The notes under the pieces: generated by a model
Seen by the model: only the letters and a program-made list of their open reading frames with translations
Database searches by the model: none
What the model was told of the DNA's origin: nothing
Source: Rhodothermales bacterium
GTDB lineage: Bacteria; Bacteroidota; Rhodothermia; Rhodothermales; VXPQ01
Direction: 5' to 3'
DNA length: 64,000 bases
Assembly (NCBI GenBank): GCA_040904565.1
Contig: JBBDTI010000031.1
Coordinates: 71,056 to 135,055, forward strand
Shown: in pieces, positions 1 through 64,000 of the stretch
Layout: every line of letters starts with the position of its first letter
Numbering within the stretch: position 1 is the stretch's first letter
Program-made: the position numbers and the translations under genes

Positions 1-623
1 TTGACGGGACGACCGCGCTGCTGGCCGGGCGTAAACGTTGCCTGCCGCACGGCACGGACGGCTTCTTCGTCGCATCCGGCACCGATGCCGCGGACGACGA
101 CGGGATCCTGCACGTTACCCTGTTCGTCGACGACGAACTGAACGATGACCCGCCCTTCGACGCCGGCCTTTTTGGCGATTTCCGGATACTTGATCTTGCT
201 CTGGATGGAGTTCAGCCCGCCGATCAATTCGGGCATCTGCTCCACGATAACGAAGATTTCCGGCTCCTCTTCTTCTTCCTCTTCAACAGGCGGCGGAGGC
301 GGCGGTGCCGCGGCCACCGGCGCGTCCAGATCCAGCGACGCATCCAGGTCGAGTGCTACATCTTCCAGGACCTCGTCGTTCGGTACCTCAACGGGGACCG
401 GAGGCTTCGGCGGAGGCGGCGGCTGCTCGATCTGCGTCGTCTGCTGCACCTCTTCCATGGTAATCTGCTCCTGCTCCGGCATGTCGATCTTGAAATCTGA
501 ATTCGAGGACCAGTCGACGCGGAACCCGACAATCAGGACACCCAGTGCCACGACGAGACCGATCTCGATGTAGAGCGGATACCTGTTGTGCAGGTTAGCA
601 TTGTCTTCTTTGCGTACGGGCAT
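1..623 (-). CDS. tonB: Energy transducer TonB (3' end runs off the window)
   Basis: Manual translation from ATG at 623: MPVRKEDNANLHNRYPLYIEIGLVVALGVLIVGF, then a Pro/Glu-rich linker (QPPPPPKPPVP...EEEEEEPEIF), then a TonB C-terminal domain (YPEIAKKAGVEGRVIVQFVVDEQGNV...GIGAGCDEEAVRAV). Not in the ORF track because it is truncated. Confidence 0.92.
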   Translation of the reverse strand, partial: MPVRKEDNANLHNRYPLYIEIGLVVALGVLIVGFRVDWSSNSDFKIDMPEQEQITMEEVQQTTQIEQPPPPPKPPVPVEVPNDEVLEDVALDLDASLDLDAPVAAAPPPPPPVEEEEEEEPEIFVIVEQMPELIGGLNSIQSKIKYPEIAKKAGVEGRVIVQFVVDEQGNVQDPVVVRGIGAGCDEEAVRAVRQATFTPGQQRGRPV

Positions 624-766: not shown

Positions 767-1192
767 TCAGTCCGGGCGTGTGGGCTTAGGTGGTCTTTCT
801 GTCGCCGCGCTAGACGTGGGGTCATGTCCACCGGAGGATGGGGGATGCCTGGAGGGGCGCCAGAAGAGGTAACCCGCGACGCCGCTGAGGAGTCCGGCCG
901 TGTTGGCCAGGGCGTCGAACAGATCCGGATCGCGGTGGAAGGGAATCAGTCCCTGATAGATCTCCGTTCCACCGGCGAGCAGGAGTCCGGCTACGATTAC
1001 GTTTCGCACGGCGGACGTCCGACCGTTGCGGGTCACGTGGAGCCAGAGGACGGCGAAGCCGACGAATAATCCGAAGTGAACGAACTTATCGGCTCCCACA
1101 ATGCTCGTTCCGGGGAGGTTCTGGCCCGGGAGGGTGCACAGGGCTACGATGAGCAGCGTCCAGCCGACGGCGGCGGCAAATCTCCAGGTCAT
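767..1192 (-). CDS. VanZ-like family membrane protein
   Basis: MTWRFAAAVGWTLLIVALCTLPG...ADKFVHFGLF...TEIYQGLIPFHRDPDLFDALANTAG carries the VanZ motifs DK-x-x-H, E-x-x-Q and D-x-x-AN. Its start overlaps the nnr stop. Confidence 0.8.
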   Translation of the reverse strand: MTWRFAAAVGWTLLIVALCTLPGQNLPGTSIVGADKFVHFGLFVGFAVLWLHVTRNGRTSAVRNVIVAGLLLAGGTEIYQGLIPFHRDPDLFDALANTAGLLSGVAGYLFWRPSRHPPSSGGHDPTSSAATERPPKPTRPD

Positions 1193-2781
1193 GAATGAAG
1201 TCGATCCTTCATGACGGGAGGAAGCGAATCGAGCAGATCCATGGCCTGCAAGGAGCGGGCGGATCGGTCCCGTGTATACCGGTCGGCTGCCGCTCCCCCC
1301 AGATGAAGTGCGGAGATGGCGGCCTGCTCCGGGCTGAGTCCCTGGGCGAGGAGTCCTACGCACAATCCGGCCAGTACGTCGCCGGTACCGGCGGAGGCGA
1401 GCGCGGGTCCGCCCGTGGCGTTGATCCATGCGGACCCATCTGGGGTGGCGGTTACGCTCGGCAATCCCTTCAGGATGAGCACGCAGTTCCACGCCCGGGC
1501 GAAGTGCTGCGCGAGGGCGACGCGGTCGTCAGGATCGATATCCACCGCATCGAGCTCGCGGCCGGCGAGGCGTCTAAATTCGCCCATATGCGGGGTAAGG
1601 ATCCAGCGACCACGAGCGTGCTCGGTGATAAAATCTGTCTGTCCAGAAAGTGCGTTGAGTCCGTCCGCGTCGATTACGACGGGCAGCCGTGCGCTTTCAA
1701 GGAGCCGCCGCACGAACTCCTGCGTATCGGGAGCTCGCCCGAGGCCGCAGCCTACCAGCAGGGCGCCGGCTTTCTCGAGCCGCGGGCTCAGTGCCTCCAG
1801 CCCACCATCAGGACCGATGCCGCGGTCGGAGGCCGGTAGCGGTATGGTGGTAATCTCCGTAAGTTTGCCGGCGAGCACGTCCTGAATCCGTTCGTCGCAA
1901 CCGCAAACGACGTAGCCGGCGCCGACGCGTGCTGCTGCCGAAGCCGCCATCACGGGGGCCCCGGTCATGCCCCTTGACCCTGCGACGACGAGGGCGAGTC
2001 CGACCGAATACTTATGGGCATCGCCCCCGCGCTCGGGCATCCACCCGCGAACGATATCATCGGAGGAGAGGCGAGCGCATCCGGATCCGTGCTCCTCGCC
2101 GGCGCGGAGGAGCGCGAAGTGCGGGATGCCGATTTCGAGGACCTCGACGCGGCCGGCGTACGAGGGGCCATCGTTGAGGAGCAGGCCGGGCTTGGCCGCG
2201 CCCATCGTATAGGTTTCGTCGGCACGGAAGGCCACGCCGAGCGGCCTCCCGACGTCGGCGTGCAGTCCGGTCGGAATGTCTACCGCGACCTTCTGGCCGG
2301 ACGCTGCGTTAAGTCGGGCAACGAGTCCGCGCACGGGTTCCCGTAGATCGCTCGTCAGACCCGTTCCCAGCAGCGCGTCGACGTGCACGTCGACGTCCGG
2401 CAGCGGTGCGTCGTCTTCCAGCCGGGCGATATGCAGTCGGGAATCGGGCATCGTACTGCCGAGACGTTCGAGAAGCTCGAAATGGGCGTCGGCATCGGTG
2501 GACATCGAGCCAGGCCCGGCGAGATGGATGACGTGTACGTCTGCACCCGCGTCGCAAAGGTAGCGCGCGATGACGAATCCGTCACCGCCGTTGTTGCCCT
2601 TCCCGCAGTAGATGGCGAACGACGCGGCCGATCCGAAGCGGCGAAGCAGCTCGTACGCGGCACCGCGCCCGGCCGATTCCATCAGCGTGAAGCCCGGAAT
2701 GCCGAATCGATCGATCGTGTACGCATCCGCCGCTCGCATGGCGGCGGCGGTCAAAACGGGTGTCATCGCGTGCTCCATCAT
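1189..2781 (-). CDS. nnr: Bifunctional NAD(P)H-hydrate epimerase/dehydratase
   Basis: YjeF N-domain motifs LMESAG, GKGNNGGDG, DALLGTG, DIPTG; C-domain motifs DAHKY, VIDADGLNAL, LTPHMGEF, AGTGDVLAG. Confidence 0.95.
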   Translation of the reverse strand: MMEHAMTPVLTAAAMRAADAYTIDRFGIPGFTLMESAGRGAAYELLRRFGSAASFAIYCGKGNNGGDGFVIARYLCDAGADVHVIHLAGPGSMSTDADAHFELLERLGSTMPDSRLHIARLEDDAPLPDVDVHVDALLGTGLTSDLREPVRGLVARLNAASGQKVAVDIPTGLHADVGRPLGVAFRADETYTMGAAKPGLLLNDGPSYAGRVEVLEIGIPHFALLRAGEEHGSGCARLSSDDIVRGWMPERGGDAHKYSVGLALVVAGSRGMTGAPVMAASAAARVGAGYVVCGCDERIQDVLAGKLTEITTIPLPASDRGIGPDGGLEALSPRLEKAGALLVGCGLGRAPDTQEFVRRLLESARLPVVIDADGLNALSGQTDFITEHARGRWILTPHMGEFRRLAGRELDAVDIDPDDRVALAQHFARAWNCVLILKGLPSVTATPDGSAWINATGGPALASAGTGDVLAGLCVGLLAQGLSPEQAAISALHLGGAAADRYTRDRSARSLQAMDLLDSLPPVMKDRLHS

Positions 2782-4523
2782 GGATTTGAAATGACCTGGC
2801 TCTCGCGAATCCGAAGCGTATCGGCCAGGGATGTTTCCCAGCGTGCGCGAACACGTACGGAATCGGCCTGCCAGACGACGGGCTCCGGCGGTACGTACGG
2901 ACGAAGCGAGCCGCCGTCCCAGCTCCCGCTGGCATTGCGATCGCCGTACGCGCGAAGCCTGTACGTGCCGGCTGGAAGTCCGTCCGATACAAACGAGCCC
3001 GTAGAGTCGGGCGTGAGGACGAAGTCGGGCACGTCGACCTCTACGGCGACAGGGTGAATTTCCACGATGACGGGGTGTACGTCGGACTCGACGATGCCCC
3101 GGATCTCACCCATCTCTGCAGGCGGGATGCGGCGGAATGCCGTCGAAAAGAGCGAGTCGATGCCGGCCAGTGCCGAGCCGTCGACGCGCAGCTCGATGGG
3201 ATAGGTCGGTGAGAGCGGAGGGTCTGAGATAAACCGGTAGGTAGTGCCGTCATCGGTCAGCGCGGAATAGGCCAGCGGACGGCCCGTAGAATCGATTAGC
3301 TGGATTGCCGCTTCGAGCATGGACGCATCAAGCGGCACGTTGAAACGCGCTCCGGGCTCGACCCCGTGCGGAAGCACATAATCCGTCGCCTGGCCGTCCA
3401 TCGGCAAGAAACCCAGGAATCGAGGCTGAAGCGTATCCGGGGCGATCGATGCCGTAAAGGTGACGACGTCGTCGACGACGGGATTGGCGCTCGTATCGGC
3501 GAGAGCCGACGGGCTAACGCGGTGCGACGTTTCATCGAGCGGCGGGGACGTGAAGAAGACCTGGCGGGGAGCGTCCGGGAAGATGTAGAGCTCGCGCAGG
3601 TCGATGCGGGCATCCGTCGTCGAATCCCGCAGCTCCCAGTTCGACGGATCGCGATCGAGGAAGCGCACCGGTTCGGAGAAGTACAGGGTGTGGCGGGTGG
3701 TGGACAGCGACTGAACGCGGAGGGGCAGCGGAGGCGTCGTGTCCAGTCGCGTCAGTACCCAGGGTCGGTCGAGTACCGTCGACGCTGAATCAGCATACAG
3801 CGCCCGTACGGGAGGTGCCGCAAACTCTTCCGTCGGATCGGGTGCCAGATTCCGATTTTGATCGCGAACGGCCGTAACGAAATAGAACTCCTCGGTGAGA
3901 TATTCGAACCGAAATGAGCCGGACCGGTCGGTCTGCGTCCGGTAAGCGGGCGGACCCGCCGCCGTCCGCGGCGCGGCGGCGCCGGGATCGCCGTTCAGGA
4001 AGGCGTCGTCGATGGAAGCACTGTCTCCCAGCGCATAGGCAAAGACGTTCACGTCGGCGGCCGGCATACCCGTACGGGGATGCACCACGCGTCCCTCGAG
4101 CGTTCCGGCATTAATGACGGGACCGGTTGAAAACGCGAGGGTCAGTGGAGATGAGAGTGATACCCCGCGAACGTCGCTGAGGCTGTTGTCCAGGCTGACA
4201 ACGTACGTCGTGTTGGCGCGAAGTGCTTCAGCAAAGCGTACTTCTACGCTTCGGCGGCTCCAGTCGATCTCGGGCGGTGCGGTGGGCGAGGGGGTGATAG
4301 ACAATGCTCTGCTGAACGAGGTTTGATCGACGTATTCGGAGAACGTGATGCGGATCGACGAGCGCGATACGTTCACGGCTCCAGGCGACGGCACACTTTC
4401 CACGATGGTCGGAGGCGTGTTGTCCACCGGACCGCCTGCGGGAGGCATGGGGGTAGCACACGAGCCCAGCAGCAGGCCGACGAGCAGAAGTCCGACCAGC
4501 AGCGTCATACACGATCGCGTCAT
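2778..4523 (-). CDS. Lipoprotein with Ig-like (Big_5) domain
   Basis: Lipobox LLGSC followed by ATPMPPAGGPVDNTPP...IRITFSEYVD...LRANTTYVV, typical of FCB-group Big_5 lipoproteins. Start placed at ATG 4523. Confidence 0.75.
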   Translation of the reverse strand: MTRSCMTLLVGLLLVGLLLGSCATPMPPAGGPVDNTPPTIVESVPSPGAVNVSRSSIRITFSEYVDQTSFSRALSITPSPTAPPEIDWSRRSVEVRFAEALRANTTYVVSLDNSLSDVRGVSLSSPLTLAFSTGPVINAGTLEGRVVHPRTGMPAADVNVFAYALGDSASIDDAFLNGDPGAAAPRTAAGPPAYRTQTDRSGSFRFEYLTEEFYFVTAVRDQNRNLAPDPTEEFAAPPVRALYADSASTVLDRPWVLTRLDTTPPLPLRVQSLSTTRHTLYFSEPVRFLDRDPSNWELRDSTTDARIDLRELYIFPDAPRQVFFTSPPLDETSHRVSPSALADTSANPVVDDVVTFTASIAPDTLQPRFLGFLPMDGQATDYVLPHGVEPGARFNVPLDASMLEAAIQLIDSTGRPLAYSALTDDGTTYRFISDPPLSPTYPIELRVDGSALAGIDSLFSTAFRRIPPAEMGEIRGIVESDVHPVIVEIHPVAVEVDVPDFVLTPDSTGSFVSDGLPAGTYRLRAYGDRNASGSWDGGSLRPYVPPEPVVWQADSVRVRARWETSLADTLRIRESQVISNP

Positions 4524-56193: not shown

Positions 56194-56563
56194 GGTACGA
56201 CCGTTCCATGTGTATCCTGTCGTGCCTGGAAGGTTCGATTGGGATCGGAAAGTGACCTGAAAATGAGTGAGCCGCACCCCGAATACATCGGAATGCGGCT
56301 CACCAGATCATCATCAAGGCTGCCGACGGGTAGGGTCGCCCAGTGGGGCTCTCGGTATTCTTGGTAGGTAGGAGTTATCAGGAGCTACCGAAAGCGCGGC
56401 CTTAATGAGATGCAACATCATGTCTCATTTGAAGGTGTCTGTGGAACGTGAAACAAACGTGCCAACGTCCATCTCCTCGAGGGCGACCGGGCCGACCCGC
56501 GCCGGAATCGGAAAAATTGTAACATTTGGGGTTGCCCACGTGAAAATTCTACCTGGTACAGGA

Positions 56564-56594
56564 ACGGCCGGACGGGCATGGCCCATCCGGCCGT
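56564..56594 (-). terminator. Strong hairpin downstream of the repeat-peptide gene (terminator or stabiliser candidate)
   Basis: Minus-strand RNA ACGGCCGGAUGGGC-CAU-GCCCGUCCGGCCGU forms a 14-bp stem with one U-G pair. No clear poly-U tail. Confidence 0.4.
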
Positions 56595-56707
56595 AATAGT
56601 ATGCACGTTGTGCGTGTCTGGCTACGGGTTGAAATAAGAGGGAGCTTCCTGCCTCTCAAATTGACGCCCAGCTGGTTACGTTCTGCGCCAACTTTGGCGG
56701 TCAGATG

Positions 56708-57016
56708 CTAATTATGCTCGGATCCGTCAGATCCACCACCGTTGTCGCCATCAAGACCACTCTTGTTGTGTTCAGAGCCGTCGCTGCCGCCGCCGTTATC
56801 GCCTTTATTATGTTCGGATCCGTCGCTTCCCCCGCCGTTGTCTGTCGCATTGTGCTCGGAGCCATCACTTCCGCCGCCGTTGTCACCACCCGCATATGCT
56901 TCGATAGACGGTCCGCTAAGCGTGTCCGCGGCACATCCTGTTAGAATCGTACTGGCGCCTGCTACGAGCGCGAGGGACATGAATGCTGAGAGAATGGCCT
57001 GTGTAAGTCGTTTCAT
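56708..57016 (-). CDS. 102-aa lipoprotein carrying four identical DNGGGSDGSEHN repeats (candidate multi-core signal/RiPP-like precursor)
   Basis: AGGAG RBS 5 nt before ATG 57016; MKRLTQAILSAFMSLALVAGASTILTG-C lipobox; repeats end exactly at the stop codon. Confidence 0.85.
   Translation of the reverse strand: MKRLTQAILSAFMSLALVAGASTILTGCAADTLSGPSIEAYAGGDNGGGSDGSEHNATDNGGGSDGSEHNKGDNGGGSDGSEHNKSGLDGDNGGGSDGSEHN
56711..56884 (-). repeat. Four 36-bp coding repeats (56884-56849, 56842-56807, 56800-56765, 56746-56711)
   Basis: Each encodes DNGGGSDGSEHN; spacers encode AT, KG and KSGLDG. Confidence 0.95.
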
Positions 57017-57157
57017 GGTGACTCCTGACTTAAATGTAAGTGCTCCTACCTGGCAAGAAGATAGACGCACCTCCCAGGGCAGTCAAGGTTCGTCGCGCCG
57101 CAAATAGCCACTTTTTAAGGGTTTGTCGGGAATGAGTTGTCATCCGTCGCATGGGTG

Positions 57158-57187
57158 TCAATGAGCTTACGACGGTGAGGTTATTGA
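57158..57187. promoter_or_regulatory. Imperfect inverted repeat in the divergent promoter between the peptide gene and the kinase
   Basis: TCAATGAGCTTAC-GACG-GTGAGGTTATTGA; 12 of 13 positions pair if G-U is allowed. Confidence 0.35.
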
Positions 57188-57305
57188 GCGTCCAGATGAC
57201 CAGTAATAGGCCTTAATATTTGTCGCATTTGGCTGATACTAGACGGAGCAGAGGCCTCATCGTCGTCCGCTTTGGGGCCGTCATCCTAAGACCATCCAAG
57301 CTATA

Positions 57306-60300
57306 ATGCCGCATTTATTGCGTCACGTCCTGGCTTTTGCATGCCTGTTGTCGATCCCGGCACAGGCTCAAGTAGGTGGGGTACATCTTTCTGAAAGCGG
57401 TCACCCGTTCTATTTGGAGCACTTTCCTCCGCACGAGTATGGTGCGTATCCGCAGAATTGGAGCGTTGTCCAGGACGTTAGCGGTCGCATCTTCGTCGGC
57501 AATTACGATGGCATTCTCGTCTATGACGGCGTTTCGTGGGATCTCGTCGCCACACCGACAAATACGACGGCCCGGTCGCTGGCGGTTGGTGATGACGGAA
57601 TTGTCTATGTCGGACTCCAGGGGGATTTCGGATATCTCGCACCCGATTCAGTTGGATCCTATGCCTATACATCTCTCGCTAATAGGCTGGCACAGAGCGA
57701 ACGAGAGTTCCGTGATGTGTGGGCGACGCATGTGGTTCCTGGTGCCGTCTATTTCCAGGCAGCGAGCCGACTTATCCGATGGGACGGCGAATCTTTTCAT
57801 GTTTGGCAGAGCGAAGAGGGCTTTCACACCTCGTTCGAAGTGGACGGCGAGATTTACGTACGCGAGATCGGTAGGGGACTATTGTGCGTCAAGGATGACG
57901 ACCTAACGGTCGTTCCCGGTGGAGACCATTTTAGCGATACACGCATTTATGTTCTCGATGATCTGGCTGACGGAAGCCTGCTGGTCGGGACGCAGGAGAA
58001 GGGATTCCTTGTCTACGACGGATCAGGTTTTCAGTCTTTTGAGACAGAAGCAGACGCCTATCTCGCGAACCACCGGCTTTATCATGGCACGGTCTTGCCT
58101 AATGGATACATCGCACTCGGCCTCCTCGATGGCGGTGGTCTAATTATACTCGATCCTAACGGACGTATTAGCGCTCACTACACCGAAGAGTCAGGTCTCC
58201 CAGACGGCTGGATCAACTTCCTATATCGAGACGCGCAGGGTGGACTTTGGTTGGCTCTTAATAATCGTGGCGTTGTTCGTATAGATCCTTTATCCCACAT
58301 CACAAAGTTTGAGGCGGAGAGTGGACTGGACGGTGTAGTCGGTGATCTACATCTCTACGAAGACAGCCTATACGTTGCTGGCAGCACCGGTCTGTTTAGA
58401 TTAAATCCGTCAAGATTATCACACGAGAGAGCTCGCCTGGTAAAGGTTGATGGGATTCACGTCGCCACGTCGCTTGCTCAAATACACGACAAGTTGGTCG
58501 TCGCGAGTCACGACGATATACGCGTCCTGGATGGTACGAGGATTGAATTTGTCGCTGAGGGGACGTTCTATAGCGTCGCCGTCTCCAGTGCGTATCCGGA
58601 TCGATTTTATGCGGGGTCAAAGACCGGCGTGGCGCTTTTTGAATTGCGCGACGGAGTATGGAATATTGAACCTGACTTTGTTCGGATTAATGATGAGGTC
58701 CGAAGGCTTGTCGAGGGGGATGATGGCACGCTCTGGATTGCGAGTCGTTCAAATCGTGTGTACCGAGTCGACACCTTTAGTGGTAAGAGTAAGATCCGGG
58801 ACGTCACTCCTTCCGACCATGTGATCAATCGGACGAGCTTGCTGAAAAACATATATGGCCGCACGTACTTACTCGGTGAATCGGGACCCGTCATTCTAGA
58901 CGATGGTGGAGAAGCGTTATCTACCAGGGATCGAGAAGTTGCACGCATACTATCTGCCTCGACTGACTCACTTCTTTACCTCGGGCACTCACCGGACGGT
59001 AGACTATGGCGAGTCTATGCAGATCGCGTTGAAATCACGGCGTGTGGTCTAGCGTGCTCCACCAATGTGCCAGAGGTTCTCAGATATCCCGAATGGTCTG
59101 GTCCGGTCAACGTCCACGTCGATTCTGTGGGCGTTGCATGGATTTCTACACGGAGCACGCTGCTACGGTATGATCCATCGATCGAGACTGAAAAATCGTA
59201 CGACGCGATATTCCCTGCGATGCTTCGCCGGGTTAGGACAATCGATACGAATCGCCTACTCTATGGCGGTGTTTGGGATGAAGAGCGTGATATCGCCGAG
59301 CCACTCTTCCAAGATCTACCGTTCAGCCAGAATGCACTCCGCTTCGAGTTCGCGTTTCCCAGCTACAACGATCCGGAAGAAAACGAATTCCAATACTGGC
59401 TGGAGGGGCGTGAAGCAGGCTGGTCGGCGTGGACGAAGGAGACCGGCAAGAATTACACGAACCTCTTCGAGGGAACCTATCGCTTCCACATCCGGGGGCG
59501 CAACGCGCAGGGTTACGTGTCGCCCGCGAGCACGTACACGTTCACCGTCTTGCCGCCGTGGTACCGGTCGAACTGGGCGTACGGTATATACGTGCTGGGT
59601 CTCCTCGGCATGGGTCTGTTCGTTCGCCGCCACCAGAGAATGGTTGTGGAAAATCGACGTGCCAGGAAGCAGGCGAAAGAACTGGCTCGAGAACGCCAGG
59701 TCAACGAGCGACTGCAGGATCTCAACAAGCGTCTCGAGCAGGCCAACGAGACGCTGCGTCAGGCCGATCGGCTCAAGGATGAGTTCCTGGCCAATACGTC
59801 CCACGAGCTGCGTACGCCGCTCACGGGAATTCTGGGCTGCTCCGCCATTCTTCGCGAGGAGGTGGACGAAGACCATCGCGAGTTCGTAAACATGATCGAC
59901 GAGAATGGGCAACGTCTCCTGAATACGCTCGACTCGCTGCTCGACCTCGCACGTCTCAGGGCCGGCCTCATGGAGCTCGACTTCAAGGAGATCGATCTGG
60001 GTGTCAAGGCCGAAAGCGTCTTGCATACGTACACGTCCCTTGCTGCCAGCAAGGGGATCGATATCGACGTGGAGGCCGAAGGTGACGTAACCGGCTGGTT
60101 CGACGATCACTGCGTCGACTGCATCCTGAATAACCTCGTCGGCAACGCGGTGAAATTCACCGATGAAGGCCGCGTACAGGTCACTATCTCAGGGACGGGA
60201 GAAGGCGTTGTGATTCGCGTACTGGATACCGGCGTCGGTATCGACGAAGAGTTCATGCCCTTCCTTTTCGATGAGTTCAAGCAGGAGTCTACGGGGCTGA

Positions 60301-60530
60301 CACGGTCACATGAAGGGAACGGTCTGGGCCTCGCCGTGACCGCGCGCATTGTCGATCTGATGGGGGGCGACATCGACGTGCAAAGTACGAAACACGTGGG
60401 TACGACCTTTACGATTCGCCTACCGCTGGAGCAGGTGCGTCCCGAGTATGCAGGGCATGGCGACGGCTTGTCGTCCAATGGCGTAGTCGTGGAGGCCTCC
60501 GAGCCCGGAGCTGAAGCCCCGTCTGCATGA
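57306..60530 (+). CDS. Sensor histidine kinase with periplasmic beta-propeller and Y_Y_Y domains
   Basis: Signal peptide, propeller repeats (QNWSVVQDVSGRIFVG, GLPDGWINFLYRDAQGGLWL), Y_Y_Y (FQYWLEG...NYTNLFEGTYRFHIRGRN...VLPPWYRS), TM, H-box NTSHELRTPL, NLVGNAVKFT, DTGVGI, GNGLGL. No receiver or AraC domain. Confidence 0.93.
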   Translation: MPHLLRHVLAFACLLSIPAQAQVGGVHLSESGHPFYLEHFPPHEYGAYPQNWSVVQDVSGRIFVGNYDGILVYDGVSWDLVATPTNTTARSLAVGDDGIVYVGLQGDFGYLAPDSVGSYAYTSLANRLAQSEREFRDVWATHVVPGAVYFQAASRLIRWDGESFHVWQSEEGFHTSFEVDGEIYVREIGRGLLCVKDDDLTVVPGGDHFSDTRIYVLDDLADGSLLVGTQEKGFLVYDGSGFQSFETEADAYLANHRLYHGTVLPNGYIALGLLDGGGLIILDPNGRISAHYTEESGLPDGWINFLYRDAQGGLWLALNNRGVVRIDPLSHITKFEAESGLDGVVGDLHLYEDSLYVAGSTGLFRLNPSRLSHERARLVKVDGIHVATSLAQIHDKLVVASHDDIRVLDGTRIEFVAEGTFYSVAVSSAYPDRFYAGSKTGVALFELRDGVWNIEPDFVRINDEVRRLVEGDDGTLWIASRSNRVYRVDTFSGKSKIRDVTPSDHVINRTSLLKNIYGRTYLLGESGPVILDDGGEALSTRDREVARILSASTDSLLYLGHSPDGRLWRVYADRVEITACGLACSTNVPEVLRYPEWSGPVNVHVDSVGVAWISTRSTLLRYDPSIETEKSYDAIFPAMLRRVRTIDTNRLLYGGVWDEERDIAEPLFQDLPFSQNALRFEFAFPSYNDPEENEFQYWLEGREAGWSAWTKETGKNYTNLFEGTYRFHIRGRNAQGYVSPASTYTFTVLPPWYRSNWAYGIYVLGLLGMGLFVRRHQRMVVENRRARKQAKELARERQVNERLQDLNKRLEQANETLRQADRLKDEFLANTSHELRTPLTGILGCSAILREEVDEDHREFVNMIDENGQRLLNTLDSLLDLARLRAGLMELDFKEIDLGVKAESVLHTYTSLAASKGIDIDVEAEGDVTGWFDDHCVDCILNNLVGNAVKFTDEGRVQVTISGTGEGVVIRVLDTGVGIDEEFMPFLFDEFKQESTGLTRSHEGNGLGLAVTARIVDLMGGDIDVQSTKHVGTTFTIRLPLEQVRPEYAGHGDGLSSNGVVVEASEPGAEAPSA

Positions 60531-60743: not shown

Positions 60744-61520
60744 ATGCTAAGAGCCTGGAAACTGCTGCGCGTATTCTGGGCTATGTCGACGCGTACGCCG
60801 TATGTCAATCTCCGTGCGTGGCGGCTTTCGCGGGACGAGGAGATCAGGTACCGCGCGCACCGCATTCAGGTCGGGTGTTCGCTCTTGTGCGACATTCTGG
60901 GTGTTTCGGTGCACGTCCGAGGTTCGGTGCCGTCCCGAGGCGGCATGCTCGTCGTGTCAAATCATTTCGGCATCCTCGACCCCTTGATCCTTTCATCCGT
61001 GCTCCCATCGGCGCCAGTCGGAAAGGCAGAAGTGTTAGCGTGGCCCTTTCTGGGCTGGGTAAGTGCCGCGCACGGGATGATTCCTGTCGAACGCCGGCGA
61101 CGCAGCACGGTCTCCCAGTTTACCGAGCGCGTCCGGAAGCGCCTGGATGCCGGCGTGAACGTGGTCGTGTTTCCGGAAGGAACGACGACCGCCTCACTCC
61201 AGGTGCGCCGCTTCAAGACAGGCGCCTTCGAAGCGGTCGCCCATCGGGATGGCGGTGCCGTGCTGCCAGTCTATCTAACCGTGCGGTCCATCGATGGACG
61301 AATGGCAGACGAGGCGGTTCGGCAGCGCGTCGTATGGGCTGATGGGGGGGCGCCTTTCGTCGAACATGCCCTGGATCTGGCATCCATTCCACACATGTCG
61401 TTCACTGTATATCTGGGCCGGCCAATTCCGACCACGGGACGTGACAGAAAGGAATTGGCACAACTTGCGCGGGAAGCGGTTGAAGCCTTACGGCTGCACG
61501 GAGAAACAATCGATACATGA
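60744..61520 (+). CDS. 1-acyl-sn-glycerol-3-phosphate acyltransferase (PlsC family)
   Basis: SNHFGILD (HxxxxD), FPEGTT, FKTGAF. Confidence 0.88.
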   Translation: MLRAWKLLRVFWAMSTRTPYVNLRAWRLSRDEEIRYRAHRIQVGCSLLCDILGVSVHVRGSVPSRGGMLVVSNHFGILDPLILSSVLPSAPVGKAEVLAWPFLGWVSAAHGMIPVERRRRSTVSQFTERVRKRLDAGVNVVVFPEGTTTASLQVRRFKTGAFEAVAHRDGGAVLPVYLTVRSIDGRMADEAVRQRVVWADGGAPFVEHALDLASIPHMSFTVYLGRPIPTTGRDRKELAQLAREAVEALRLHGETIDT

Positions 61521-61623
61521 GGCAACGTCACAGGGAACGAAGGGGTGATCGACGAGGTGATCGACGGGGTGAACGTCGATGTACCGTGCGAATCCTCGCT
61601 CAACGCCGATTCAGACCGCAACC

Positions 61624-63243
61624 ATGAAAGATCAGCAGCAGATATCAAGTGTCAAAATCCTGATCGGCGTCGGGCTCGTACTGGTCGGCTTGACGACAGG
61701 CATTCTGTTCATGTTGATCGCCGGTAGCCATCCCGAGAATGTAGATGGTGGGCAGCGGGTCGTCGAGCGCGTGCAGCTGGGAAACCGGGAAGCCCCGGCG
61801 AACGTGCCCGTGCTTGACTCTCTCAACGCATCTCTCGATCCACGCACGCTGAACCGGATGTTCCGGCACGTTGCGGACGATGTGACGCCGGCCGTCGTCT
61901 ATATTCAGGTTGAGGTTCCGCTCCAGCAGGATGGACAGCGTGAGTGGTACCACAATTTCGATGAAGACGCTCGCCGCCGGTTCTTTCAGGACGATCCCCT
62001 ACGACAGAGCGTCGGAAGCGGCGTGCTGATTAGTCCACAGGGATATATCGTTACCAATCACCACGTCGTCGAGAACGCCGAGAGCATCCAGGTAACGCTT
62101 TCGGATAAGCGACTGTACGATGCGCGCATTGTCGGTACCGACCCGTCGACCGATCTGGCCGTTCTGAAGATCGAAGACGGAGGGAGGGATTTTCCGGCGG
62201 TACGCCTCGGTAATTCCGACGGCCTTCAGGTCGGCGAGTGGGTACTCGCGATAGGTAATCCGTTCCGGCTGACATCTACAGTCACAGCGGGGATCGTGAG
62301 CGCAACGGGGCGTCAGGTGAACATCATCGACGGTGATTTTGGTATCGAGGATTTCATCCAGACGGACGCGGCCATCAATCCCGGCAATTCGGGCGGAGCC
62401 GTCGTGAATCTTAACGGCGAGCTCGTTGGGATTGCCACGGCCATTGCTACGGAGAGCGGCTCGTACGAAGGATACGGCTTTGCCGTCCCCGCCAATCTGA
62501 TGGAACGCGTTGCAGGCGACCTCATCGAATATGGCGAGGTTCGGCGCGGCTATCTTGGGGTCGTCATACAGAACGTAGATGCGGGCGTCGCTCGTCGGCT
62601 CGACATGGAGGAGATCCAGGGGATCTACGTCAACGACGTTACCGACGGTGGCTCTGCGGCAAATGCCGGAATCAGGCAAGGTGACGTCATCGTTTCGGTC
62701 GACGATCGCGCCGTGAATGCCGCGAACGAGTTGCAGAGTACGGTCGCGCGGAAACGACCCGGAGACGTGCTCGACATCGGCGTCTGGCGTGAGGGAAGCG
62801 TCATCCAGTTCGACGTCGAACTGCTGGGACGAAACACGCCTGCCTACGAACGCTGGTTCAGTGAACTGCGGGAGCAAGGAGAGGAAGAGGCACCGGAGGC
62901 CGAACGGGCGCCGCCCCTCGATCAGGACAACGTATTCGAATTGAGCCGGTGGGGCGTCGGGCTGCGAAATCTCACGGCGAGAGAACTCAATGCGTTCGAT
63001 GTGCGGGCCGGGGCATACGTGGCATATGTCGAGAATGGCAGCGTCGCGGATGATGCCGCACTACCACGCGATGCCGTCATTACCGAGATTTCCGGTTCCC
63101 GAGTCGAGTCGACGGAGCAGGCCATCAACCGCCTCGAGGAGGCCGCACAGGTCGACGAGACAGTTCTGATCAAGGTCAGGCGCCGAGATGGGATTTCTGC
63201 GTATTATGAAATGGAAGTACCCGCAACCGCCGGTTCATTATGA
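61624..63243 (+). CDS. HtrA/DegP-family serine protease with two PDZ domains
   Basis: [37 protein letters not shown], followed by PDZ domains. Confidence 0.93.
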
Positions 63244-64000
63244 TTCGTTACCTCACGGCCGGAGAATCTCATGGCGAAGCGCTCATAGGGATCGTCGAAG
63301 GGATGCCGGCAGGCGTTCCCGTCGATCCTGAAGACATCAACCATCATCTGGCCCGACGGTGGCTGGGATATGGTCGAGGAGGTCGGTCGAAGTTCGAGCG
63401 CGACAAAGTACACATCTATTCCGGTATTCGATTCTCCCGGACGATGGGCAGTCCTATCGCCATGCGACTGGATAACGCGGCCTATACGAAGGACCGGTCC
63501 GGTTGGCCCGATGTGATGGCCGTGTCCGGGTCCGGGGAGGGTGTGGACAAGGTGACTCTGCCGCGCCCCGGGCACGCTGATTTGACGGGTCTGCAAAAAT
63601 ACAGGTTCGACGATATCCGGCCTGTCATCGATAGGGCGAGCGCACGGGAAACGGCCATGCGCGTAGCCTGTTGCACGGTGGCTCGTCAGCTCCTCAAGCA
63701 ATTCGGCATCGAGGTTGGCAGTCACGTCGTCCGCCTCGGCGAGGTCGGCATGGATGCTCCCAAGTCGTGGTACGAACGCGTCGCCGAAATCACCGATGAG
63801 GGCGCGGAGAACCTCAACCGGTATGCCGACGAGAGTGCGGTGCGGATGCTGGACGAGGAACTGACGGACGCCTGCATCGAGCATATCGACGAGACGAAGA
63901 AGCGCGGTGACTCGTTGGGAGGTATGTATGAAGTCGTGGTGACGGGCGTGCCTCCGGGGCTCGGCTCGTACGTTCAGTGGGACCGCCGGCTCGATGGGCA
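63240..64000 (+). CDS. aroC: Chorismate synthase (runs off the window)
   Basis: Manual translation from ATG 63240, which overlaps the HtrA stop: [15 protein letters not shown]...[13 protein letters not shown]...PRPGHAD...[12 protein letters not shown]...GDSLGG. Confidence 0.95.

What the first reader, a model, noticed from the sequence alone, without database searches (positions are those of the whole stretch)
56708..60530. Candidate new peptide-signalling system: multi-core repeat lipoprotein head-to-head with a beta-propeller sensor kinase
Seen: a 102-aa ORF with a good RBS and a lipobox (LTG-C). After a short linker it has four identical 12-mers, DNGGGSDGSEHN, separated by 2-6 aa spacers, two of which start with Lys; the last copy is flush with the C-terminus. 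It shares a 289-bp divergent promoter with a 1074-aa kinase whose periplasmic beta-propeller/Y_Y_Y sensor is of the type used by Bacteroidota hybrid two-component systems. Known: polyprotein precursors releasing several identical cores occur in yeast alpha-factor and multi-core RiPPs, and peptide genes linked to their receptor kinase define agr and comQXPA quorum sensing, mostly in Gram-positives. Inference: this is a lipid-anchored precursor whose repeats are displayed or released and sensed by the adjacent kinase, i.e. a diderm peptide-pheromone or kin-recognition module. I know of no described system with this architecture.
Basis: partly seen in the sequence, partly recalled or inferred. 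Interest (0 to 1): 0.9.

Follow-up and report, generated by a model that had tools for sequence, protein, structure and literature searches.

The report
Repeat-tailed lipoprotein paired with sensor kinase
A tiny membrane-anchored protein whose tail carries four identical 12-residue units sits head to head with a sensor kinase in many Rhodothermales bacteria, which suggests an undescribed partner or signal for that kinase.

Summary
Window 56708-57016 (-) encodes a 102-aa protein with an LTGC lipobox and four identical DNGGGSDGSEHN units, the last at the C-terminus. It lies 289 bp from a divergent 1074-aa Reg_prop/Y_Y_Y histidine kinase. The four units differ at 13 of 36 nucleotide sites, all synonymous. 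The protein matches no Pfam or NCBIfam model, and five literature searches found no description. I saw family-type sequences in 61 of 285 Rhodothermales species genomes, in 15 of 27 families. Members share a conserved head (G-C-x-A-D-S/T-L-S/T-G-P) and a low-complexity tail built on an H-N motif. The tail is often 2-9 identical units, or the whole gene is repeated in tandem. The kinase lay divergently adjacent in 26 of 29 loci. Kinase homologues without the lipoprotein form a separate clade, with one exception. One genus lost both genes while keeping the neighbours, and two genomes carry two pairs. Against strict coupling, one genus keeps the lipoprotein without the kinase. Best reading: a lipid-tethered, multivalent ligand or regulator of the kinase (about 0.5). 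A released peptide pheromone is possible but untested (about 0.15). Binding, processing and expression were not shown.

The parts
56708..57016 (-). Gene for the 102-aa repeat-tailed lipoprotein (P0001), stop codon 56708-56710 included
   Evidence: Homologues were seen in 61 of 285 order genomes.
56936..57016 (-). Signal peptide, residues 1-27, ending in the lipobox L-T-G before Cys28
   Evidence: Read from the sequence. G27 and C28 are invariant in the 34-sequence alignment A4. No SignalP or LipoP tool was available.
56909..56935 (-). Conserved head of the mature protein, C-A-A-D-T-L-S-G-P (residues 28-36)
   Evidence: The best-conserved part of the family. In the window's own genome the motif occurs in only this protein.
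56849..56884 (-). Unit 1, DNGGGSDGSEHN (residues 45-56)
56807..56842 (-). Unit 2, DNGGGSDGSEHN (residues 59-70)
56765..56800 (-). Unit 3, DNGGGSDGSEHN (residues 73-84)
56711..56746 (-). Unit 4, DNGGGSDGSEHN (residues 91-102), flush with the C-terminus
57022..57026 (-). Shine-Dalgarno-like AGGAG, 5 nt before the ATG
   Evidence: Read. CAGGAG is kept in 3 of the 4 own-family intergenic regions; G006 reads CAGGGG.
57058..57086 (-). Sigma-70-like promoter candidate TTGACT-17-TATCTT for the lipoprotein gene
   Evidence: Consensus scan, alone not above chance (2 found, 1.0 expected). Both hexamer positions are conserved in 4 of 4 own-family intergenic regions. Inferred, not shown.
57210..57242 (+). 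Conserved intergenic block GCCTTAATATTTG...GGCTGATACTAG, 64-96 nt upstream of the kinase ATG. It may be the kinase promoter or a regulator site.
   Evidence: Kept in 4 of 4 own-family genomes in alignment A5. Function unknown.
57306..60530 (+). 1074-aa histidine kinase: signal/TM1 at residues 1-22, periplasmic Reg_prop/Y_Y_Y sensor at about 23-752 (nt 57372-59561), TM2 at about 757-775, HisKA 824-887, HATPase_c 940-1042, no receiver domain
   Evidence: Orthologues.

Best explanation
The small gene encodes a lipid-anchored, intrinsically disordered envelope protein that is a dedicated partner of the adjacent kinase. Its conserved head (C-x-A-D-S/T-L-S/T-G-P) and its tail of one to nine short H-N-centred units are presented in the periplasm to the kinase's beta-propeller/Y_Y_Y sensor. 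There it acts as a tethered, multivalent ligand or regulator that sets or reports kinase activity. I suspect an envelope-state signal, by analogy with sensor lipoproteins and periplasmic kinase accessories.

Shown: the gene, the lipobox, the identical units under purifying selection, the family, and the persistent gene pairing. Inferred: lipidation, periplasmic exposure, physical contact with the sensor, and any effect on signalling.
For: (1) Pairing. The kinase N-terminus lay divergently next to the lipoprotein gene in 26 of 29 loci found with the lipoprotein. Of the three misses, L063 has the kinase about 1.1 kb away just outside the locus, L052 is at a contig end, and L041 is a second copy. 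The kinase was also present in 18 of 20 loci, which partly overlap.

(2) Reverse test. I took 40 upstream regions of kinase homologues from genomes where, with four exceptions (G019, G230, G234, G273), the lipoprotein profile had found nothing. Three were too short. Of the other 37, 19 hold a family-type lipoprotein.

(3) Kinase tree. In a quick tree of 38 kinases, 13 of the 14 without a lipoprotein form one clade with SH-aLRT 99. These are mostly longer, 1085-1319 aa frames, and five of them inspected over a wider stretch lie in other neighbourhoods. The label needs 2 changes on the tree against 11.6 in shuffles.

(4) The pair outlasts its neighbours. In L071, L072 and L075 only the kinase stays beside the lipoprotein.

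(5) Joint loss. The lipoprotein profile and the kinase query both found nothing in any of the 12 genomes of genus g8. In the two complete ones inspected, aroC-DegQ-acyltransferase-thioredoxin-GT4-prmC remain, with the pair missing.

(6) Joint duplication. G085 has two kinase-lipoprotein pairs (L080, L173). G236 has two lipoprotein genes, each beside a kinase N-terminus, one of them cut by a contig end.

(7) The head motif is unique to this protein in its own genome, so it is not a general lipoprotein sorting tag.

(8) Selection on the units. In the window all 13 variable sites are synonymous. Identical units differ by up to 24% in DNA in 26 of 28 repeat-bearing members (identity was a selection criterion there). 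In genus g10, orthologous units are closer in DNA than the two units within one gene, yet two amino-acid changes appear in both units. That points to selection for sameness.

(9) Motif. 172 of 218 tail histidines are followed by Asn, against 30.5 +/- 5.0 in shuffles. The last HN lies 0-6 residues from the C-terminus in 69 of 73 members that have one.
Against: No binding, processing, localisation or expression data exist.

Much of the adjacency sits inside a larger conserved block (prmC-thioredoxin-GT4-lipoprotein / kinase-acyltransferase-DegQ-aroC), so inherited synteny explains part of the pairing.

Genus g87 (3 of 3 genomes) keeps the lipoprotein at the syntenic site, divergent from DegQ, with no kinase there and only about 33%-identical longer kinase homologues elsewhere.

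G266 keeps an orthologue-clade kinase with no lipoprotein; ispG lies directly upstream.

G025 has a second lipoprotein copy next to an ECF sigma factor and a Ser/Thr kinase instead.

No response regulator is among the neighbours scanned.

The loci in points 1, 4 and 6 were found through the lipoprotein and are not an unbiased sample. Relatives are not independent.
Confidence: 0.5

Rival explanations
1. Released multi-copy peptide signal. The lipoprotein is a precursor. A protease frees the identical HN-ended units, or the single tails of the tandem genes, and these act as a pheromone or kin signal sensed by the propeller sensor of the same or neighbouring cells.
For: The units are kept identical by selection while their DNA drifts. 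Copy number is raised either by repeats within the gene (2-9 units) or by tandem gene copies, five 49-aa genes in G125 and two each in G121, G120 and G119. Tails differ between species while heads stay constant. The last unit ends at or near the C-terminus, as in Phr-type pro-peptides (recalled). Lys often opens the spacer. The gene is linked to a receptor-type kinase.
Against: No protease, exporter or maturation gene is conserved beside the pair. 42 of 92 members have no exact repeat. Spacers are not conserved. A 12-18-residue peptide would have to re-cross the outer membrane to reach a periplasmic sensor. Within genus g10 the tails evolve only moderately faster than the kinase: 60-95% identity against 73-94%. 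There is no evidence of release.
Confidence: 0.15
2. An envelope protein with its own job, unrelated to sensing: a disordered metal- or calcium-binding, hydrating or spacer lipoprotein. It would sit next to the kinase through inherited synteny or shared regulation only.
For: The whole neighbourhood is a conserved block of envelope genes. Genus g87 keeps the lipoprotein without the kinase, and G266 keeps the kinase without the lipoprotein. Gly-rich identical repeats with one His each recall the copper-binding octarepeats of prion protein (recalled). Tails are rich in Asp, Glu, Asn and His. Some members carry Cys pairs near the motif.
Against: The pair persists where every other neighbour has changed, is lost together, and is duplicated together. 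At least seven of the 19 members without an HN dipeptide have no His in the tail at all (for example SDGGNE x6 and GDDERN x4), while an Asn is kept, which argues against His-based metal binding. A simple spacer would not need identical units or parallel substitutions. The units do not fit the RTX nonapeptide, read against the consensus GGxGxDxUx as I recall it.
Confidence: 0.25
3. A glycosylated or otherwise modified peptide product made with the neighbouring GT4 glycosyltransferase and thioredoxin-like protein, in the manner of glycocins.
For: GT4 lies directly downstream of the lipoprotein gene in 17 of 29 loci, with a thioredoxin-like gene beyond it in 10 of the 20 wider loci. The tails are rich in Ser, Thr and Asn. 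The head D-T-L fits the Bacteroidota O-glycosylation sequon (recalled).
Against: GT4 and thioredoxin are retained in genus g8 after the lipoprotein and kinase were lost. They are missing from many loci that keep the pair. Several units have no Ser or Thr. The Asp of the sequon is not conserved. Most tails have no Cys.
Confidence: 0.04
4. Not a gene: a chance ORF over a DNA repeat.
For: The ORF is short and low in complexity, with a mirror ORF on the other strand. No RNA data were available.
Against: All differences between repeats are synonymous in this frame only. The signal peptide, lipobox and head are conserved across 15 families of the order. The ribosome-binding site and promoter-like boxes are largely conserved in the own-family regions.
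Confidence: 0.01

Closest known systems
Sensor lipoproteins of envelope stress systems (NlpE with CpxA, RcsF with the Rcs phosphorelay)
   Same: A small lipoprotein feeds information to an inner-membrane sensor kinase system in a diderm. RcsF also uses a disordered lipid-proximal segment. I saw passages in PMC11784454 naming RcsF and the 'sensor lipoprotein NlpE'. The rest is recalled.
   Different: NlpE and RcsF have folded sensing domains, no repeats, no HN motif and no sequence similarity to this protein. They are not encoded head to head with their kinase (recalled). This protein is a low-complexity tail (Atlas model pLDDT 0.52).
CpxP / ZraP / Spy periplasmic accessory proteins
   Same: A small exported protein transcribed divergently from the two-component genes it modulates. 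A DegP-family protease takes part in the Cpx circuit, and a DegQ-like gene lies two genes downstream here. All of this is recalled; no paper was read for it.
   Different: Those proteins are helical LTXXQ-motif proteins and not lipoproteins. P0001 had no Pfam hit.
Multi-copy or C-terminal peptide pheromone precursors (yeast alpha-factor, Phr/RRNPP pro-peptides, multi-core RiPPs)
   Same: Several identical short units lie in one exported precursor. The last unit is at the C-terminus, and synonymous drift occurs between units.
   Different: Those systems have defined processing sites and known proteases or modifying enzymes. Their receptors are GPCRs or cytoplasmic RRNPP proteins, and none is a lipoprotein of a diderm. 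These comparisons are recalled.
Bacteroides hybrid two-component system sensors (for example BT4663; PDB 4A2L/4A2M, 3OTT, 3VA6, 3V9F)
   Same: The kinase has the same Reg_prop/Y_Y_Y periplasmic sensor type.
   Different: The kinase here has no receiver and no AraC-type DNA-binding domain. Known ligands of that sensor type are oligosaccharides (recalled), not a protein partner.

Membership tests
Bacterial lipoprotein (signal peptidase II substrate) | Positively charged n-region, hydrophobic h-region, and lipobox [LVI][ASTVI][GAS]C | tested here: met
   The sequence is MKR..., a hydrophobic stretch, then L-T-G-C28. Gly-Cys is invariant in 34 aligned members.
Bacterial lipoprotein (signal peptidase II substrate) | Actual lipidation and cleavage | not testable with these tools
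   This needs globomycin sensitivity, labelling or mass spectrometry.
Multi-core peptide precursor (alpha-factor-like or multi-core RiPP) | Several identical core peptides in one precursor | tested here: met
   The window has four identical 12-mers. 50 of 92 family members have exact repeats of 6 aa or more.
Multi-core peptide precursor (alpha-factor-like or multi-core RiPP) | Conserved processing sites flanking each core | tested here: inconclusive
   The spacers AT, KG and KSGLDG vary. Lys is frequent but not universal; genus g10, for example, uses Tyr.
Multi-core peptide precursor (alpha-factor-like or multi-core RiPP) | Dedicated maturation enzyme or exporter in the locus | tested here: not met
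   The conserved neighbours are GT4, a thioredoxin-like protein, an acyltransferase, DegQ and aroC. GT4 and thioredoxin persist without the lipoprotein.
agr / comQXPA-type peptide quorum sensing | Peptide gene linked to its receptor histidine kinase | tested here: met
   The kinase is divergently adjacent in 26 of 29 loci.
agr / comQXPA-type peptide quorum sensing | Polytopic membrane receptor kinase, cognate response regulator and maturation protein in one operon | tested here: not met
   The kinase has a large periplasmic propeller sensor with two TM segments. No receiver-domain or maturation gene is among the six neighbouring proteins scanned.
CpxP/ZraP/Spy accessory family | LTXXQ-motif helical fold (the Pfam family, as recalled) | tested here: not met
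   P0001 had no Pfam family at E <= 0.01.
Hybrid two-component system (HTCS) | Reg_prop propellers plus Y_Y_Y sensor, HisKA and HATPase_c | tested here: met
   Pfam scores were above the curated cut-offs, with PDB matches.
Hybrid two-component system (HTCS) | Fused receiver and AraC-type DNA-binding domains | tested here: not met
   Neither domain was found; the protein ends after HATPase_c. It is therefore a classical kinase with an HTCS-type sensor.
RTX / beta-roll calcium-binding repeats | Tandem nonapeptides GGxGxDxUx | tested here: not met
   Unit periods in the family range from 6 to 21 residues and the consensus is not matched. The comparison was by eye, against the consensus as I recall it.

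The most novel reading that the evidence does not exclude
A peptide signalling system of a new kind in diderm bacteria. A lipoprotein precursor, or a battery of tandem lipoprotein genes, supplies many copies of one short HN-ended peptide that is the natural ligand of an HTCS-type beta-propeller sensor kinase. Ligand and receptor diversify together between species, as in the duplicated pairs of G085. That would give Rhodothermales a private cell-cell or self-envelope signal.
Probability: 0.15. Interest if true: 0.9.

Novelty: new variant of a known kind. Interest (0 to 1): 0.62.

Why it matters
Propeller/Y_Y_Y sensors are known as glycan receptors. A protein or peptide partner would widen what this very common Bacteroidota sensor type can read.

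The family is unnamed and restricted to one order in the genomes searched. It offers a clean case of repeats kept identical at the protein level while their DNA diverges, including parallel substitutions. It also shows two routes to multiple copies: repeats within one gene and tandem gene copies.

Cultured, tractable Rhodothermus species appear to carry the pair (genus g10, identified from genome sizes only, which is my inference). The partner-versus-pheromone question is therefore directly testable. If the units are released, this would be a rare peptide signal in a diderm.

Tried and rejected
Co-folding of the periplasmic sensor (residues 23-752, 21-row alignment) with the mature lipoprotein (residues 28-102, 34-row alignment) gave no verdict: score 0.01 against a mark of 0.32, and the controls were not run. 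I use it neither for nor against binding.

Sequencing runs: no RNA holder was listed. Four DNA contig runs of one study hold the stretch. I used them only to confirm that the repeat region assembles identically in a second sample.

The ESM Atlas gave no hit of 0.8 or more and only low-TM structural rows. P0001 had no family in Pfam or NCBIfam. I did not scan PHROGs or PADLOC.

The promoter and terminator scan alone was not above chance, and no terminator was found.

The 762-aa P0032 and the 387-aa G001 lipoprotein matched the profile through the signal peptide only and were dropped. A hit to the head motif on own-genome contig C84 lies in a non-coding frame.

Outside the order, the class-wide search found only four weak hits, all in open frames of 139-547 aa, which I did not inspect. 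Three of four non-Rhodothermales genomes of the class had kinase homologues of only 24-28% identity, and one had none.

I considered a Bacteroidota O-glycosylation sequon in the head (D-T-L) and left it as a lead, because the Asp is not conserved. I considered RTX-like calcium binding and rejected it by eye.

Before the count of 92, I dropped by eye ten junk-frame matches of my head regex, plus P0032. The count of 61 genomes is of sequences I saw; G092's hit was not recovered by my regex and is not counted. My first lipoprotein regex missed at least one true member, G273, which was found. 'Absent' in the 18 negative upstream regions therefore means not found by two regex passes.

The tree is the quick IQ-TREE version. 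The careful search did not finish in 300 s and I did not rerun it.

I did not test co-variation between tail and sensor.

Full report
THE OBSERVATION. Window 56708-57016 (-) encodes 102 aa: MKRLTQAILSAFMSLALVAGASTILTG-C28, the segment AADTLSGPSIEAYAGG, and then four exact copies of DNGGGSDGSEHN separated by AT, KG and KSGLDG. The last copy ends at the stop codon. AGGAG lies 5 nt before the ATG. The next gene, 289 bp away on the other strand, is a 1074-aa histidine kinase with Reg_prop, Y_Y_Y, HisKA and HATPase_c domains and no receiver domain. Its Y_Y_Y part matches the solved sensor domains of Bacteroides hybrid two-component systems, 3OTT, 3VA6, 4A2L and 3V9F.

THE REPEATS ARE SELECTED, NOT RECENT SLIPPAGE. 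The four 36-nt units differ pairwise at 6-12 sites. Thirteen sites in 11 of 12 codons vary, and all changes are synonymous, including serine encoded by AGY in three units and TCT in the fourth. About 20% of random single changes would be synonymous, so 13 of 13 has a crude probability near 1e-9. The pattern exists only in the minus-strand frame, so the 121-aa ORF on the + strand is a shadow. A contig from a second sample of the same study is identical over 56400-57500.

AN UNNAMED, ORDER-WIDE FAMILY. Pfam and NCBIfam have no model for the protein. Word-based and exhaustive protein searches found 2 and 35 related clusters. Genome searches found relatives in four of eight genera of the window's own family and across its order, which record titles name as Rhodothermales. 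I saw family-type sequences in 61 of 285 species genomes, from 15 of 27 families.

All members share a signal peptide, an invariant Gly-Cys, and a head C-x-(A/S)-(D)-(S/T)-L-(S/T)-G-P. In the window's own genome this head occurs in no other protein, so it is not a general sorting tag.

The tail is low-complexity and built around an H-N dipeptide. 73 of 92 distinct mature sequences have it. 172 of 218 tail histidines are followed by Asn, against 30.5 +/- 5.0 in shuffles. The last HN lies 0-6 residues from the C-terminus in 69 of 73. The 19 without HN mostly carry R-N, Y-N or G-N-E, so Asn is the constant.

50 of 92 members have exact repeats. Examples are 2 x GGNNGGGSTTIGADHNN, 4 x VGGGTTTGDGANH, 6 x GGDNSHN(I), 5 x GNQGGDVHN and about 9 x GGKHESRNENG. 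In family f17 the multiplicity is instead made by tandem genes: five 49-aa genes in G125 and two each in G121, G120 and G119.

Outside the order I found only weak hits in long ORFs and only 24-28%-identical kinase homologues.

CONCERTED CHANGE AT THE PROTEIN LEVEL. In 26 of 28 repeat-bearing members the identical peptide stretches differ in DNA, by up to 24% (identity was the selection criterion, so this shows only that the repeats are old). Genus g10 gives a fairer test. For G137 and G020 the orthologous units differ at 8 and 5 of 42 nt, whereas the two units inside each gene differ at 10 and 9. The Ser/Gly difference between the species is nevertheless present in both units, and the same holds for an Ala/Gly difference between G020 and G138. 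Either both units changed in parallel or very short conversion tracts were followed by silent drift. In both cases sameness of the units is being maintained. Within g10 the tails are 60-95% identical, against 73-94% for the kinase N-terminus and 70-94% for GT4, and the head is 83-100% identical. This is faster than the neighbours but not extreme.

IS THE KINASE LINK REAL? The kinase N-terminus lies divergently beside the lipoprotein in 26 of 29 loci. One of the three misses has it about 1.1 kb away, one is at a contig end, and one is a second copy. It is also present in 18 of 20 partly overlapping loci.

For the reverse direction I took 40 kinase-homologue upstream regions from genomes where, with four exceptions (G019, G230, G234, G273), the lipoprotein profile had found nothing. 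Three were too short. Of the other 37, 19 hold a family-type lipoprotein. The negatives belong mostly to longer kinases; five of them, with 1203-1289-aa frames, were inspected over a wider stretch and lie in other neighbourhoods. In a quick maximum-likelihood tree of 38 kinases, 13 of the 14 lipoprotein-less ones form one clade (SH-aLRT 99). The label needs 2 changes against 11.6 in shuffles, with 0 of 500 shuffles as low.

The pair is embedded in a conserved block, prmC-thioredoxin-GT4-lipoprotein / kinase-acyltransferase-DegQ-aroC, so synteny alone explains part of the adjacency. Three further patterns go beyond synteny. In L071, L072 and L075 the kinase is the only neighbour retained. In genus g8 neither gene was found in any of 12 genomes, and two complete genomes show the flanking genes intact with the pair excised. 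G085 carries two kinase-lipoprotein pairs, and G236 two lipoprotein genes each beside a kinase N-terminus, one cut by a contig end.

Three findings count against strict coupling. Genus g87 (3 of 3 genomes) keeps the lipoprotein at the syntenic site, now divergent from DegQ, with no kinase there. G266 keeps an orthologue-clade kinase with ispG directly upstream and no lipoprotein. G025 has an extra lipoprotein copy beside an ECF sigma factor and a Ser/Thr kinase.

REGULATORY SIGNALS. Among the four own-family genomes the intergenic region keeps a TTGAC-N17-TATCTT pair, a GGTAGGAG block and an SD-like CAGGAG (CAGGGG in G006) before the lipoprotein gene. It also keeps a block at window 57210-57242 upstream of the kinase. 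The consensus scan alone is not above chance. I read this as an own promoter for the lipoprotein gene, which is inferred and not shown.

MECHANISM. The most economical reading is a lipid-tethered, disordered, multivalent partner of the kinase's periplasmic sensor. The conserved head and the HN units would be the contact elements, with copy number tuning avidity or reach. This resembles sensor lipoproteins (NlpE, RcsF; passages seen in PMC11784454) and divergently encoded periplasmic accessories (CpxP, ZraP; recalled). There is no sequence or fold relationship to any of these. I give it about 0.5.

It lacks any processing or export gene, must explain passage across the outer membrane, and is not required by the non-repeat members. 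I give it about 0.15.

An independent envelope function, such as metal or calcium binding or a spacer, with mere co-location is kept alive by g87 and G266. It is weakened by joint loss and duplication, by His-free members and by the parallel substitutions. I give it about 0.25.

A glycocin-like product made with GT4 and thioredoxin is unlikely, because those genes stay when the pair is lost.

WHAT WAS NOT SHOWN. Lipidation, localisation, processing, expression and binding were not shown. Co-folding gave no verdict and no RNA run was listed. Neither is used as evidence. Five literature searches found no paper describing the family. I saw only listings and abstracts for those, plus passages of PMC11784454.

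VERDICT. This is an undescribed Rhodothermales-specific lipoprotein family, genetically coupled to one orthologous group of propeller-sensor kinases. Its repeat-evolution signature is unusual. Function is open and directly testable.

Noticed in passing
L127 (G125:C11:63500-72500), about 1870-3100 on the minus strand: Five tandem, nearly identical 49-aa lipoprotein genes (mature part ...CNAADLAGPEAPQSQTDCENECSNGRNL) lie upstream of and divergent from the kinase. G121, G120 and G119 have two copies each. In this lineage gene-level multiplication replaces repeats within the gene.
   Followed up: partly
L007/L041 (G025:C377), 175-546 (-) and 835-2019 (+): A second family member (5 x GGKHESRNENG) is divergent from an ECF-type sigma factor gene followed by a Ser/Thr protein kinase gene. 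The kinase-linked copy on G025:C63 has about nine units in 181 aa.
   Followed up: partly
L171, L172 (G008, G013): In genus g8 the lipoprotein-kinase pair is missing, and the thioredoxin-GT4 segment is inverted relative to the window, directly abutting the acyltransferase gene. This looks like one rearrangement that removed the pair.
   Followed up: partly
L178, L181, L182 (genus g87): The lipoprotein has a single HN and a Cys pair (...HNTGCPxGDPEC.). It is retained between prmC and DegQ-aroC, while the kinase and acyltransferase are absent from the site.
   Followed up: partly
window 57210-57242: The intergenic block GCCTTAATATTTG-N8-GGCTGATACTAG is conserved in all four own-family genomes, 64-96 nt upstream of the kinase start. 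It could be a promoter or a regulator-binding site.
   Followed up: no
G001:C88, G002:C9, G005:C29 (loci L035, L038, L037): In three own-family MAGs the closest kinase orthologue is cut by a contig end inside the sensor-coding part. The lipoprotein position therefore cannot be read, and the cause of the repeated assembly breaks is unknown.
   Followed up: no
window 60744-63998: Acyltransferase, a DegQ/HtrA-type protease with two PDZ domains, and chorismate synthase follow the kinase. DegQ and aroC overlap by 4 nt. This trio is conserved next to the kinase across much of the order.
   Followed up: partly
L089 (G029:C28:14900-16700): A family member with GGGDGHNENRGAQ repeats runs into a withheld (N-masked) stretch, so its unit number could not be read.
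   Followed up: no
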